A stretch of DNA of 64,000 bases, from contig CAVYRK010000011.1 of assembly GCA_963770955.1 (NCBI GenBank), forward strand, positions 906,745-970,744, given 5' to 3'. The notes under the pieces are model-generated. The model saw only the letters and a program-made list of their open reading frames with translations, was not told the DNA's origin and ran no database searches. Origin of the DNA: an uncultured Actinomycetota bacterium. Lineage in GTDB: Bacteria > Actinomycetota > UBA4738. Below, piece after piece: positions 2,428 through 54,788 of the stretch (its first letter is position 1; every line of letters begins with the position of its first letter). Both the position numbers and the translations under genes were made by a program.

Positions 2428-2532
2428 GCATCCGGTCGCTGCGCCCACCCCCCTCCCCGAGCTCGGCGGCCACCGCGATCGCTGCCGGGCTGCTGTCGGG
2501 GCTGCTCCTGAACCTGGCCAACCCGCCCGCCG

Positions 2533-4764
2533 ATGCAGGGCCCGTTGGCGTTCGTGGCGCTCGTGCCGCTCCTGTGGGCGCTCCGGGGCGCGCGGCCGGG
2601 CCGCGGGGCGGCCGCCGCCTTCGCGTTCGGCGTCGTCTACTACGGCTTCCTGCTGAACTGGCTGGTCGTGTTCGGCACCATCGCGTGGCTGCCGCTGGTG
2701 GTGAGCCAGGCGCTGTTCGCGGCCGCGTTCGGCGCGCTCGCGCCGCTGGTGGCCCGAGGCGACCGGCCGGTGCGATCCGCGTTCGCGTTGGCCGGCCTGT
2801 GGACGGCGATCGACTGGATCCGAGGGATGTGGCCGATCGGGGGATTCACCTGGGGGGGGCTCGGCTACACCCAGCACGGCAACGGCCTGACCCTGCCGCT
2901 CGCGACCGTGACCGGCGTCTGGGGCGTGACGTTCGTCGTGCTGCTGGTGAACGCGTTGCTGCTGGAGGCGGCGGTCGTCCGCCGGCCCGGCCGGGCCGCG
3001 CGGCTGGGCCCCGCGATCCCGGTCGCGATCGCGCTCGGCGTGACCCTGCTGCCGGCCGCGATCCCGGTGCGCGGGGCGTCGGGCCCGCCGATGGACGTCG
3101 CGGTGGTGCAGGGGAACGTGCCGCGCGCGCTGGCGTCGGACCGCCTGCTGCAGAGCGATCAGGTCGCGCTGAACCACATCGACCTGAACCGCACGCTGGC
3201 CCCGGACCCGCCGGACCTGGCGGTGTGGCCGGAGAACGCGCTCGCCGACGACCCGGCGCGCGACGCGACCCTGGGCGCAGCGGTGTCCGCGTCGATTCGC
3301 GCGGTGGGCGCGCCGACGATCGTCGGCGCGATCACGCCGGGGCCTGGAGACACCCTGTTCAACGTCGCGCTGCTCTACGACGCGCGGGGCTCGATCGTCG
3401 ATTCGTACGCGAAGATCCACCTGGTGCCGTTCGGCGAGTACATCCCGTGGCACTCGGCGCTCGGGTGGACGCAGCGGTACCGGCATGGCCTGGGGACGTT
3501 CTCCTCGGGCAGCCGCGTGCACGCGTTCGACGTGAACGGCACGCTCGTCGGCACGCCGATCTGTTTCGAGAACACGTTCCCGGGGCTGTTCCGGCAATTC
3601 GTGGCCGACGGGGCGGAGCTGATGGTCGTCACCACGAACGACTCCTCGTACCTGGACTCGCCGGCGTCGCGTGAGCACGTGATCATGAGCCAGCTGCGCG
3701 CGGTGGAGACGGGGCGGTGGGTCGTGCAGGCGGCCGTGTCGGGGGAGAGCGCCATCGTCAACGCGCACGGCCAGGTGGTGAGCCGGACCGGCCTGTTCGA
3801 GCAGACGGTCCTCCGCGGGGACGTGCCGACCGCGACCGCGCGGACGCCATACGTGCGGTTCGGGGACTGGTTCCCGTTCCTGTGCGCGATGACCATGCTC
3901 GTGCTCCTCGCCATCGGCATCGCCGGCCGGGTCCGTGCCCGTCGTCGGCGGCCTGCCGCGGCCGGGAGCCCGGTTGCCGCCGATCCCCCGGCGGGGGAGG
4001 GGATGGCGGCGGCGCACGCCCCCATCGCCGGGGGCGCGCAGCCCCGCGTCCTGGTCGTCCTCCCGACGTACAACGAGCGGGCCACCATCGAGGCCGCGGT
4101 CCGCGGCGCCCTCGAGGCGGGGCCGGCGGTCCACGCCCTGATCGTGGACGACGGGTCGCCGGACGGCACCGGACGCATCGCGGACGACCTGGCGGCATCC
4201 GAATCCCGCATCCGGGTGCTGCACCGCGAGGGAAAGCGGGGGTTGTCGTCCGCGTACCTGGCCGGCTTCCGCGTCGGCCTCGACGAGGGGTACGACGTCG
4301 TCGTGGAGATGGACGCCGACCTGTCCCACCGCCCCGAGGATCTGCCGGCAGTGATCGCGGGGGCCGAGACGAACGACCTCACCATCGGGAGCCGGTACAT
4401 TCCCGGCGGCGGCGTCTCCAACTGGAGCCGATTCCGCGTGGCCCTGTCCAAGGGCGGCAATGCCTACGCCCGGACCCTGCTCCGCCTGCCCGTCAAGGAC
4501 GCGACCAGCGGGTTCCGGAGCTACCGCCGGGAGTGCCTGGCTTCCCTCGTGCAGGCCGGGTTCCACTCGCAGGGGTACGGATTCCAGATCGAGCTCGTCT
4601 ACCGAGCGGTGCGGATGGGCTTCCGGCTCGGCGAGGTCCCGATCACGTTCCGGGAGCGGGAGCACGGACATTCGAAGATCTCCCGCGCCATCGTGGTCGA
4701 GGCGCTCTACGACGTCGCCCGTTGGGCGATCCGCGATCGCCTGCCCGGGCACCGGTCACCCTGA
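2533..4764 (+). CDS. ppm1: Fusion of apolipoprotein N-acyltransferase (Lnt, CN-hydrolase) and polyprenol-phosphate mannose synthase (Ppm1-type GT2)
   Basis: N-terminal polytopic part carries the Lnt E-K-C triad contexts (AVWPENAL, YAKIHLVPFGEYIP, GTPICFENTFP). The C-terminal part has GT2/DPM1 motifs (VVLPTYNERATI, IVDDGSPDGT, EMDADLSH). The first Lnt TM helix (AIAAGLLSGLLLNLANPPADAGP) is encoded just upstream (about 2470-2540) in another frame, so the true start is probably upstream and is lost to an indel near 2540. Confidence 0.8.
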   Translation: MQGPLAFVALVPLLWALRGARPGRGAAAAFAFGVVYYGFLLNWLVVFGTIAWLPLVVSQALFAAAFGALAPLVARGDRPVRSAFALAGLWTAIDWIRGMWPIGGFTWGGLGYTQHGNGLTLPLATVTGVWGVTFVVLLVNALLLEAAVVRRPGRAARLGPAIPVAIALGVTLLPAAIPVRGASGPPMDVAVVQGNVPRALASDRLLQSDQVALNHIDLNRTLAPDPPDLAVWPENALADDPARDATLGAAVSASIRAVGAPTIVGAITPGPGDTLFNVALLYDARGSIVDSYAKIHLVPFGEYIPWHSALGWTQRYRHGLGTFSSGSRVHAFDVNGTLVGTPICFENTFPGLFRQFVADGAELMVVTTNDSSYLDSPASREHVIMSQLRAVETGRWVVQAAVSGESAIVNAHGQVVSRTGLFEQTVLRGDVPTATARTPYVRFGDWFPFLCAMTMLVLLAIGIAGRVRARRRRPAAAGSPVAADPPAGEGMAAAHAPIAGGAQPRVLVVLPTYNERATIEAAVRGALEAGPAVHALIVDDGSPDGTGRIADDLAASESRIRVLHREGKRGLSSAYLAGFRVGLDEGYDVVVEMDADLSHRPEDLPAVIAGAETNDLTIGSRYIPGGGVSNWSRFRVALSKGGNAYARTLLRLPVKDATSGFRSYRRECLASLVQAGFHSQGYGFQIELVYRAVRMGFRLGEVPITFREREHGHSKISRAIVVEALYDVARWAIRDRLPGHRSP

Positions 4765-4816
4765 GGAGGCCGCTCACCAGCCTCGACCGGGTCTTCGTCC
4801 CCTCTCGTGAACGCCG

Positions 4817-4830
4817 ATAATGGACATTAT
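4817..4830. promoter_or_regulatory. AT-rich inverted repeat ATAATG-GA-CATTAT upstream of the peroxiredoxin gene (possible operator)
   Basis: A 6-2-6 inverted repeat in an otherwise about 70% GC intergenic region, about 140 nt upstream of the ATG at 4968. It loosely resembles Fur/PerR-type ATAAT/ATTAT half sites. Confidence 0.25.
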
Positions 4831-4967
4831 GGAAAGTCGAGCGAGCGCAACCTCACCCCCGCGGGGCGACCCGCGTTGTCGGCACCAATGGATAGAGTGG
4901 CCCACATTCGTCCGGACGACTGCCACGCTTGGTCCGGGAAGAACCTCGACGAGAAGGAGCGCTGCGC

Positions 4968-53315: not shown

Positions 53316-53443
53316 GGCCCCGATTTTAGGGACATCGGCCGATGTACCTAGCCTCCGGCCGAGGGCACAATCCACTGGCCGCCCCCTGGGCGGGGAACCC
53401 CCCGGGGGCCGATACCTGGAGGACGAGTGGAAAAGAGGCATCC

Positions 53444-53821
53444 GTGCGAGTGCTGAGACCAGCCGACTCCCCCGGCCCCGCGGTCCCGGACGGCCAGCTC
53501 CCGGACCCCGGCGACCCCTTCTCGCCCGCCCCCGAACCCGATGCCTGCCCGCCCCTCGTCCTGGTGCGCTGGCGCGACGCCTGGTTCGACCCCGAGCAGC
53601 TCGGCTCGGAGGACTGGCGCTCCGACTATCCCGTTCAGACGGTCGGCTTCCTCGTCCGCAACGACAGCACGATCGTCTCGGTCGCCCAGGAGATCCTGCC
53701 CGACGGCGACGGCTACCGGGCCGTGACCCACATCCCCGCCGCCATCGTCACCAGCATCACGATGCTGTCCGAGGGCCGGCAGGCCGGTTCGAACGGATCA
53801 GGACTGATCGCGGGGGTCTGA
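53444..53821 (+). CDS. Hypothetical protein
   Basis: Protein-like C-terminal half (LVLVRWRDAWFDPEQLGSEDWRSDYPVQTVGFLVRNDSTIVSVAQEILPDGDGYRAVTHIPAAIV). No family recognised and the start is uncertain. Confidence 0.45.
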   Translation: MRVLRPADSPGPAVPDGQLPDPGDPFSPAPEPDACPPLVLVRWRDAWFDPEQLGSEDWRSDYPVQTVGFLVRNDSTIVSVAQEILPDGDGYRAVTHIPAAIVTSITMLSEGRQAGSNGSGLIAGV

Positions 53822-53829
53822 CCGGCCGC

Positions 53830-54764
53830 TCAGGCCCGCGCGTCCGGACCCAGCAACCACAGGAGCAGCGCCTTCGCCGTGTGCAGTCGGTTCTCGGCCT
53901 GGTCCCAGATCGCGGAGTGAGGCCCGTCGATCACCTCGTCGGTGATCTCCTGCCCGCGATGGGCCGGGAGGCAGTGCAGGACCACCACGTCGGACGCCGC
54001 ACGGTCAACGGCCGCCTGGTCGATCCGGAACTGCCGAAACACGAGCGTCCGCTCACCCACCTCCGCTTCCTGCCCCATCGAGGCCCAGACGTCGGTGTAC
54101 AGGACGTCGGCACCCGTCGCGGCGGTCACCGGGTCGTTCGTGATCTCCACGGTGCAGCCGTCCTCGGCGGCGATCTCCTTCGCCCGCTGCACCACCTGGG
54201 GGATCGGCTCGAAGCCGACCGGCGTCGCCACGCGGACGTTCATCCCCGACATCGCCCCGCCCAGGAGGAGCGAGTGCGCCACGTTGTTCCCGTCACCGAT
54301 GAAGGTCAGGGTCAGGCCGCGCGAGTTCGCCCCGCCGCTCCCGAACCGTGAGCAGGTCCGCCAGGCACTGGCACGGGTGCTCGAAGTCGGACAGCGAGTT
54401 CACGACCGGGACGTCGGAGTTCGTCGCGAGGGCCTCGAGCCGCTCCTGCCCGAACGTGCGGAGCACGACCGCGTCGACGTATCGGCGAGAGGACACGGCC
54501 GGTGTCCTCGATCGTCTCCCCTCGTCCGAGCTGCAGCTCCGTGGAGGAGAGCACGAGCGGATGCCCGCCCAGGCCGGCCACCGCGACCTCGAACGACACC
54601 CGGGTCCGGGTCGACGGCTTCTCGAAGATCAGCGCGACCGCCTTGCCCTGCAAGCCCTTCGCGTACCGGCCCGGCTCGGCCTTGACCGATGCCGACAGGT
54701 CGAGGACCTCCCGAAGCTCCTCGGGCTGGAGGTCGTCGATGGACAGGAAGTTCCGGGCGGCCAT
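53830..54764 (-). pseudogene. argF: Ornithine carbamoyltransferase, two frameshifts as assembled
   Basis: [14 protein letters not shown], then [24 protein letters not shown], then [26 protein letters not shown]. Junctions lie near 54486 and 54320. Confidence 0.88.
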
Positions 54765-54788
54765 TGATGGGGATCGTACCCCGAGAGG

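What the first reader, a model, noticed from the sequence alone, without database searches (positions are those of the whole stretch)
2530..54770. About 40 single-base frameshifts in conserved housekeeping genes, clustered in a few stretches
Seventeen genes read as collinear, well-conserved protein segments that hop between frames: lnt, prx, gcvPB, dac, gcvH, the manC/B-like gene, possibly the Clp_N gene, deoB, xerD, ald, pyrG, the L1923 endonuclease, tyrS, mpg, polX and argF. At almost every junction the frame is restored by skipping exactly one base, often in a short G or C run. Examples are GCCGCCGTTC at 5108, the G5 run at 13497, CCCGG at 13431 and the G-run at 27268. Two junctions (near 15290 and 24462) look like one missing base. 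Essential genes (tyrS, pyrG) are hit, and there are no in-frame stops or decay within segments. The 17.5-22.8 kb, 27.3-44.7 kb, 44.8-50.5 kb and 54.8-64 kb stretches are clean. This pattern fits insertion-biased consensus errors in low-quality stretches far better than real pseudogenes. It matters because naive ORF calling here yields fragments and false fusions.
Basis: partly seen in the sequence, partly recalled or inferred. Interest (0 to 1): 0.6.

Follow-up and report, generated by a model that had tools for sequence, protein, structure and literature searches.

The report
Assembly-error frameshifts in a draft genome
About 40 conserved genes' reading frames in this stretch are broken by single stray bases that are almost certainly consensus errors of a low-quality long-read metagenome assembly, not real mutations, so the finding is a data-quality warning rather than biology.

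Summary
A frameshift-aware alignment against dozens of relatives gives 40 single-base frame breaks in 16 genes of the window. Of these, 38 are one extra base and 2 are one missing base (15292 and 24460/1).

The interpretation also holds: these are assembly consensus errors, not pseudogenes.
- The same breaks occur across the whole 3.19 Mb, 11-contig genome, at about 2,240 calls or 7 per 10 kb. Short-read relatives give 0.8-0.9 per 10 kb.
- The genome scores only 63% complete, which fits.
- None of the window's breaks is shared with the sister species or with 84-91% identical Illumina contigs, where the same genes are intact.
- Once each stray base is skipped, the genes are 94-98% identical to their closest orthologues. 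They have no in-frame stops and dN/dS of 0.06-0.12.
- tyrS and pyrG are single copy, so real breaks would be lethal.
- No motif, quadruplet codon or unusual tRNA is shared by the sites.

- Most extra bases are not in homopolymers.
- scpA (21238) is broken inside a stretch called clean.
- The ManC/B-like gene has 12 breaks and polX has 6.

The parts
2440..4764 (+). lnt (LNT_N + CN_hydrolase) fused to a GT2 domain. One extra base at 2545-2548, which cuts off the N-terminal roughly 20-30 codons.
   Evidence: 31 of 31 spanning references call a one-base skip. The alignment is conserved on both sides of the break. Pfam LNT_N matches from profile position 19.
4959..5464 (+). AhpC/TSA peroxiredoxin-like gene. 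Extra bases at 5104-5106 and 5352-5356.
   Evidence: Three collinear HSPs in frames 3, 1 and 2. Supported by the aligner and Pfam AhpC-TSA.
5502..7001 (-). gcvPB. Extra bases at 6059-6061, 6129-6138 and 6386-6394.
   Evidence: NCBIfam PRK04366 pieces 38-206, 208-283 and 309-487 lie in different frames. 57-61 of 59-61 references call one-base skips.
10575..11909 (-). D-Ala-D-Ala carboxypeptidase (Peptidase_S11, 'dac'). One extra base at about 10750-10759, 61 codons before the stop.
   Evidence: 45 of 51 references. Gene structure compared with L015 and L013. Pfam.
13252..13676 (-). gcvH. Extra bases at 13431-13436 and 13496-13497.
   Evidence: 38 of 38 and 37 of 37 references. Pfam GCV_H.
13732..16234 (-). 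NTP_transferase-hexapeptide-PGM/PMM fusion (ManC/ManB-like, about 835 aa). Eleven extra bases at 14011, 14120, 14478, 14551-3, 14582-4, 14619, 15381-3, 15553, 15822-5, 16014 and 16053-4. One missing base at 15288-15297.
   Evidence: Aligner run with L037. 10-11 of 10-11 references at each site. Pfam.
21160..21976 (-). scpA. One extra base at about 21229-21239, about 26 codons before the stop.
   Evidence: DNA gap against L173. One-base skip at 21238, with 92.9% identity over 269 aa. Pfam SMC_ScpA.
22787..23967 (-). deoB (phosphopentomutase). Extra bases at 23165-23168 and 23775-23783.
   Evidence: NCBIfam pieces 3-52, 67-274 and 282-392. Isolated 1-nt gaps against both L175 and L173. Aligner result.
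24002..24999 (-). xerD. One missing base at 24460-24461.
   Evidence: NCBIfam pieces 6-164 and 168-296. Gap against L175 and L173. Intact 333-aa orthologues at 94% identity.
25026..26153 (-). ald (alanine dehydrogenase). Extra bases at 25845-6, 25975-7 and 26056-8.
   Evidence: NCBIfam pieces. Gaps against L175 and L173. 97.3% identity to L175 once the bases are skipped.
26759..28403 (-). pyrG (CTP synthase). One extra base at 27266-27270.
   Evidence: NCBIfam 5-373 and 375-532. Gaps. 98.0% identity to L175. Single copy in the genome.
44700..45250 (-). LAGLIDADG-type ORF inside the second insertion of the 23S rRNA. One extra base at about 44798.
   Evidence: Comparison with the paralogous ORF at 42999-43490 only. 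This is the weakest of the 40 calls.
49716..50958 (-). tyrS. One extra base at 50595-50597.
   Evidence: TIGR00234 pieces 5-105 and 113-378. 44 of 45 references. Single copy.
50958..51594 (-). mpg (3-methyladenine glycosylase). One extra base at 51289-51299.
   Evidence: PRK00802 pieces 6-88 and 93-191. 41 of 41 references.
51594..53324 (-). polX. Extra bases at 51987-8, 52009-11, 52038-41, 52182-6, 52332-9 and 52829-31.
   Evidence: PRK08609 pieces. 87-98 references at each site. All 80 metagenome relatives encode an uninterrupted PolX.
53839..54764 (-). argF. Extra bases at 54319-20 and 54484-6.
   Evidence: PRK00779 pieces 4-97, 99-151 and 151-305. 69 of 69 and 63 of 63 references.

Best explanation
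The frame breaks are errors in the deposited consensus sequence, not features of the organism's DNA. The window belongs to a highly contiguous (11 contigs), uncultured, 70% GC actinobacterial metagenome-assembled genome. That genome was most likely built from noisy long reads at low or uneven depth, without effective short-read polishing. Where few reads supported the consensus, single spurious bases survived, mostly insertions. This produces kilobase-scale dirty patches next to clean ones. Each stray base shifts the frame, so gene callers report fragments and the genome scores as only 63% complete.

Shown here: the breaks are single bases, strongly biased to insertions, placed at random with respect to codon phase, genome-wide, patchy, not shared with relatives, and located in genes that otherwise look fully functional.

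Inferred: the sequencing platform and the low depth.
For: - Contiguity versus completeness: 11 contigs and 3.19 Mb, but 63% completeness. The sister genome G002 shows the same pattern, with 20 contigs and 61%.
- Counts: 40 breaks in the window, all of exactly one base, 38 insertions to 2 deletions.
- Detector checks: simulated insertions and deletions were recovered at 26/26 and 28/30. Two Illumina contigs compared with each other gave 0 events.
- Genome-wide: 2,240 reference-free calls on all 11 contigs, or 7.0 per 10 kb, 81% of insertion type. The rate is 0.8-0.9 per 10 kb in 1.6 Mb of short-read relatives, 10.4 per 10 kb in G002 and 2.7 per 10 kb in Nanopore MAG loci of the same family.
- Patchiness: variance-to-mean ratio of 6.3, and 154 empty 5-kb bins against 19 expected. 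There is no correlation with GC.
- Not shared: L175 (91% nucleotide identity) and L173 (84%) carry intact pyrG, ald, xerD, deoB and scpA. G002 and 80 metagenome contigs carry intact PolX.
- Selection: corrected genes are 94-98% identical to L175, have 0 in-frame stops and dN/dS of 0.06-0.12. Intact neighbours give 0.06-0.32.
- Essential genes: tyrS, pyrG, gcvPB, deoB and mpg exist only as the broken copy.
- Codon phase: 27 of 37 insertions are compatible with a third-position placement. Random placement predicts two thirds.
- Literature: long-read MAGs carry indel frameshifts that lower CheckM completeness, more so at low coverage (PMC8103633; PMC9262707).
Against: - No reads could be examined.
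- Most extra bases are not homopolymer extensions. Homopolymer errors are the classic Nanopore signature, and an insertion excess this strong is not what I would expect from Nanopore consensus (my own knowledge). So the platform or polishing route is unknown.
- Peak patch densities reach about 0.6-0.8% indels. That is close to raw-read error for modern chemistries and implies very thin support in those patches.
Confidence: 0.95

Rival explanations
1. This is still an artefact, but produced by strain heterogeneity rather than thin coverage. Where co-assembled strains differ by a SNP, the polisher writes both alleles one after the other, creating a one-base insertion. Dirty patches would then mark regions of high microdiversity.
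For: - All six insertions seen at DNA level against L175 and L173 can be read as doublets of two synonymous third-position alleles, for example GG[CG], GT[CG], CC[CG], GG[AG].
- The insertion bias and the non-homopolymer contexts fit this idea.
- The patchiness is unrelated to GC.
Against: Over all 37 insertions, 27 are third-position compatible. That is no more than the two thirds expected from random placement, and 10 fit best between codon positions 1 and 2. The idea could not be tested without reads.
Confidence: 0.25
2. The frameshifts are real, from very recent genome-wide pseudogenisation of a degenerating lineage.
For: The bases are present in the deposited sequence, and many genes are hit. 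Nothing else supports this reading.
Against: - All 40 events are exactly 1 nt, at 38 insertions to 2 deletions. Bacterial mutation is deletion-biased with mixed indel sizes (my own knowledge; Mira et al. 2001, Kuo and Ochman 2009).
- There are no nonsense codons, and dN/dS is 0.06-0.12 in the broken genes.
- One gene has up to 12 breaks without any other decay.
- Single-copy tyrS and pyrG are broken.
- Roughly 2,000 excess breaks in about 3 Mb would leave no viable proteome.
- The sister genome, assembled to a similarly few contigs, has its own breaks at different positions.
Confidence: 0.02
3. The frameshifts are real but decoded. The mechanism would be programmed +1 frameshifting, quadruplet decoding or transcript editing that restores the frame.
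For: 38 of 40 breaks go in the same (+1) direction, and the downstream frames are perfectly conserved.
Against: - The sites share no motif. The best 6-mer is enriched about 2-fold and covers 7% of calls.
- The four-base words at the sites are heterogeneous. CGGN fits one site.
- None of the 46 tRNAs has an odd anticodon loop.
- The positions are not conserved in G002, L175, L173 or about 150 other relatives.
- Two sites need a -1 correction instead.
Confidence: 0.01

Closest known systems
Indel frameshift errors in long-read (Nanopore or PacBio) assemblies and MAGs, as described by Watson and Warr 2019 (my own knowledge), Cusco et al. 2021 (PMC8103633) and Sereika et al. 2022 (PMC9262707)
   Same: Single-base indels split otherwise conserved genes. 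Pseudogene and CDS counts are inflated. CheckM completeness is lowered despite high contiguity. The effect is worse where coverage is low. It can be corrected with frameshift-aware tools.
   Different: These errors are overwhelmingly insertions, and most are not in homopolymers. The cited Nanopore papers stress homopolymer indels. The platform of this genome is not known to me.
Genuine mass pseudogenisation, as in Mycobacterium leprae or recently host-restricted bacteria (my own knowledge)
   Same: Many genes are interrupted by frameshifts.
   Different: Real cases show mixed indel sizes, deletions, nonsense codons, relaxed dN/dS and intact essential genes. None of these is seen here.
Programmed +1 frameshifting, as in prfB/RF2, and quadruplet decoding by frameshift-suppressor tRNAs (my own knowledge)
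   Same: The frame is restored by skipping one base.
   Different: Those sites have a conserved position and a conserved slippery or quadruplet context. Here the contexts are heterogeneous and the positions are unique to this assembly.

Membership tests
Long-read assembly consensus indel errors | Breaks are single-base indels in otherwise collinear, conserved coding sequence | tested here: met
   40 of 40 are 1 nt, and profile coordinates are collinear across the breaks.
Long-read assembly consensus indel errors | Genome-wide occurrence, far above the rate in short-read assemblies of relatives | tested here: met
   7.0 per 10 kb on all contigs, against 0.8-0.9 per 10 kb in short-read relatives.
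Long-read assembly consensus indel errors | High contiguity combined with depressed marker-gene completeness | tested here: met
   11 contigs, 3.19 Mb, 63% complete. The sister genome G002 has 20 contigs and 61%.
Long-read assembly consensus indel errors | Breaks are absent from independent sequence of close relatives | tested here: met
   L175, L173, G002 and more than 100 other loci lack them.
Long-read assembly consensus indel errors | Accurate reads from the same sample lack the extra bases | not testable with these tools
Long-read assembly consensus indel errors | Errors are concentrated in homopolymers (the classic Nanopore, 454 or Ion Torrent signature) | tested here: not met
   22 of 37 insertions cannot be placed in any run of 2 or more identical bases, and none needs a run of 4 or more. 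This argues against one particular platform signature, not against a consensus error.
True pseudogenes (reductive evolution) | Mixed lesion types (indels of various sizes, deletions, nonsense codons) and relaxed selection | tested here: not met
   Only 1-nt events at 38 insertions to 2 deletions, 0 in-frame stops, dN/dS 0.06-0.12.
True pseudogenes (reductive evolution) | Essential single-copy genes remain intact | tested here: not met
   tyrS and pyrG exist only as broken copies.
Programmed frameshift or quadruplet decoding | A shared slippery or quadruplet motif at the shift sites | tested here: not met
   No dominant k-mer. The four-base words are heterogeneous, and CGGN fits one site.
Programmed frameshift or quadruplet decoding | The shift position is conserved in orthologues | tested here: not met
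   No site is shared with G002, L175, L173 or other relatives.
Programmed frameshift or quadruplet decoding | A tRNA with an expanded anticodon loop | tested here: not met
   ARAGORN finds 46 ordinary tRNAs and none with an odd loop.

The most novel reading that the evidence does not exclude
The extra bases are really in the DNA of this uncultured actinobacterium and of its sister species. Thousands of +1 insertions would then be tolerated because transcripts or translation are corrected by an unknown mechanism that does not depend on sequence context.
Probability: 0.01. Interest if true: 0.97.

Novelty: not a real feature. Interest (0 to 1): 0.07.

Why it matters
This matters as quality control. 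I estimate about 2,000 spurious frame breaks in this genome, which affects every use of it.
- Naive ORF calls give fragments and inflate pseudogene counts.
- The 63% completeness understates the real gene content.
- A broken gene, pseudogene or recoding signal reported from any window of this genome, or of its sister genome G002, should be treated as an error until reads say otherwise.
- Annotation should use frameshift-aware correction.

The strong insertion bias and the mostly non-homopolymer contexts are a useful fingerprint for spotting assemblies with the same defect.

Tried and rejected
- Exact look-up of the window's intact GcvPA, to find another assembly of the same organism, found nothing on record. 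Records of this genome or of near ones are withheld.
- G002 (84% nucleotide identity) as the main reference was rejected. It has its own dense frame breaks, at 10.4 per 10 kb, and its stop-to-stop ORFs give messy alignments.
- Stop-to-stop reference ORFs produce false 'events' at gene borders, upstream of true starts and on shadow frames. Examples are 7029, 8396, 8817, 9888-9974, 12629, 54762 and 61539. I inspected these and discarded them.
- A methylation or slippery motif: several window sites lie near GATC, but genome-wide k-mer enrichment shows no dominant motif.
- CGGN or any other single quadruplet codon: rejected on the site contexts.
- Merging of synonymous alleles as the source of the insertions: suggestive in six sites but not better than random over all 37.
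- Frame breaks in the rRNA genes cannot be assessed by reading frame. The 16S differs from G002's by a single gap.
- The Clp_N gene (about 17027-17071) and the TPR gene (about 41670-41990) remain unresolved candidates, because only G002 covers them.
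Full report
**Setting.** The window is C11:906745-970744 of a 3.19 Mb, 11-contig, 70% GC genome. Its relatives are uncultured soil Actinomycetota MAGs. 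The genome is scored only 63% complete despite its contiguity. The sister genome G002 has 20 contigs and scores 61%. The G002 region is syntenic over the whole window.

**Checking the observation**
- A codon-usage segmentation showed many short coding segments that abut one another in different frames on the same strand.
- NCBIfam and Pfam profile coordinates are collinear across these hops for gcvPB, tyrS, mpg, polX, argF, deoB, xerD, ald, pyrG, gcvH, the NTP_transferase-PGM fusion, lnt, prx and dac.
- I wrote a protein-to-DNA aligner that allows one-base skips and one-base gaps. I ran it with 2,163 reference ORF chains taken from about 160 loci of relatives.
- For 21-35 kb I fetched two JGI metagenome contigs through an XerD search: L175 (91% nucleotide identity) and L173 (84%). 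I aligned them to the window at DNA and at protein level.
- Result: 40 breaks in 16 genes, all of exactly one base. 38 are an extra base.
- Support at each site is close to 100% of the spanning references.
- An independent, reference-free Viterbi caller found 39 breaks in the window, almost all at the same places.

**Controls**
- The aligner gives 0 events when the proteins of one Illumina contig are laid on the other.
- It recovers simulated insertions at 26/26 and simulated deletions at 28/30. The 38:2 ratio is therefore not a detection bias.

- scpA carries an extra base at about 21238, inside a stretch called clean.
- The ManC/B-like gene has 12 breaks and polX has 6.
- 22 of 37 insertions cannot be placed in any run of identical bases, and none needs a run of 4 or more. 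The homopolymer association is therefore weak.
- The long lnt ORF is a natural Lnt-GT2 fusion.
- The stretch from 27.3 to 35 kb is verified clean against L173.
- The stretch from 54.8 to 64 kb has no consistently supported event.

**What the breaks are**

The phenomenon is not local.
- The reference-free caller gives 2,240 calls on all 11 contigs, or 7.0 per 10 kb, 81% of insertion type.
- The rate is 0.8-0.9 per 10 kb in 1.6 Mb of short-read relatives, 10.4 per 10 kb in G002, and 2.7 per 10 kb in Nanopore MAG loci of the same family.
- The calls are strongly clumped. The variance-to-mean ratio is 6.3 in 5-kb bins, and 154 bins are empty against 19 expected. There is no relation to GC content.

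The broken genes show no decay.
- After the stray base is skipped, pyrG is 98.0% identical to L175, ald 97.3%, xerD 94.5% and deoB 93.8%.
- There are no in-frame stops.
- dN/dS is 0.06-0.12, as low as or lower than in the intact neighbours, which give 0.06-0.32.

The breaks would be lethal if real. tyrS, pyrG, gcvPB, deoB and mpg have no second copy in the assembly.

None of the window's breaks is shared with G002, L175, L173 or the other relatives. G002 has its own breaks at other positions.

**Recoding was tested and rejected**
- There is no dominant motif around the calls.
- The four-base words at the sites are heterogeneous, and CGGN fits one site.
- The 46 tRNAs are all ordinary.
- The codon phase of the insertions, at 27 of 37 third-position compatible, equals the random expectation of two thirds.

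**Mechanism.** The best explanation is residual consensus error in a long-read metagenome assembly with thin or uneven support. Published work shows that such MAGs carry indel frameshifts that depress completeness, especially at low coverage (PMC8103633; PMC9262707). Several few-contig relatives in this family come from a Nanopore-only Flye and Medaka workflow (record titles; PMC12313526). The platform of this genome is an inference only.

The strong insertion bias and the non-homopolymer contexts are not the classic Nanopore signature. One variant I considered is that both alleles of a strain polymorphism are written into the consensus. It fits the six sites seen at DNA level, but over all sites it does no better than random placement.

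**Limits.** The decisive test, read pile-ups at the 40 sites, is therefore still open. Notes by other agents on other windows of this genome also report single-base frame breaks. My genome-wide scan agrees with them.

**Verdict.** This is not a real biological feature. Interest is low, apart from its value as a quality warning for this genome and for G002.

Noticed in passing
window 42564-47492 (23S rRNA, minus strand); insertions at 42857-43576 and 44597-45349: The 23S rRNA gene spans 4.9 kb. It holds two insertions of about 720 and 754 nt that are absent from G002 and from other relatives. Each carries a LAGLIDADG-type ORF (42999-43490 and 44700-45389). Another note on this genome calls them group I introns at L1923 and L1931. 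The 23S segment between the two insertions is only 94% identical to G002 and has 10 gaps, while the flanks are 98-99% identical.
   Followed up: partly
G002:C10:104000-183999 (L009-L012): The sister-species genome has its own dense frame breaks, mostly of insertion type, at 10.4 per 10 kb. Its gcvPA-gcvPB-dac region is one example. None is at the window's positions. That genome should be treated as equally error-prone.
   Followed up: partly
whole genome G000 (11 contigs): ARAGORN finds 46 tRNA genes but no tRNA-Cys, only one tRNA-Val, and one tRNA-SeC. The missing species may be a casualty of indel errors or of incompleteness.
   Followed up: no
window 13732-16234 (-): A single gene of about 835 aa fuses NTP_transferase, hexapeptide repeats and a PGM/PMM domain, giving a ManC-like plus ManB-like protein. 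It is conserved as one ORF in relatives, for example 836 aa in L037.
   Followed up: partly
window 2440-4764 (+): Lnt (LNT_N plus CN_hydrolase) is fused to a GT2 glycosyltransferase domain. This recalls the Lnt-Ppm1 arrangement of some actinobacteria (my own knowledge). It is conserved in relatives as ORFs of about 830-880 aa.
   Followed up: partly
window 40990-41989 (-) and 16945-17547 (-): There are two further candidate frame breaks. One is in a TPR-repeat gene (reference-free calls at 41670 and 41987; G002 suggests a missing base near 41782). The other is near the 3' end of the Clp_N-domain gene (about 17027-17071). Only the error-prone G002 covers them, so both remain unresolved.
   Followed up: partly
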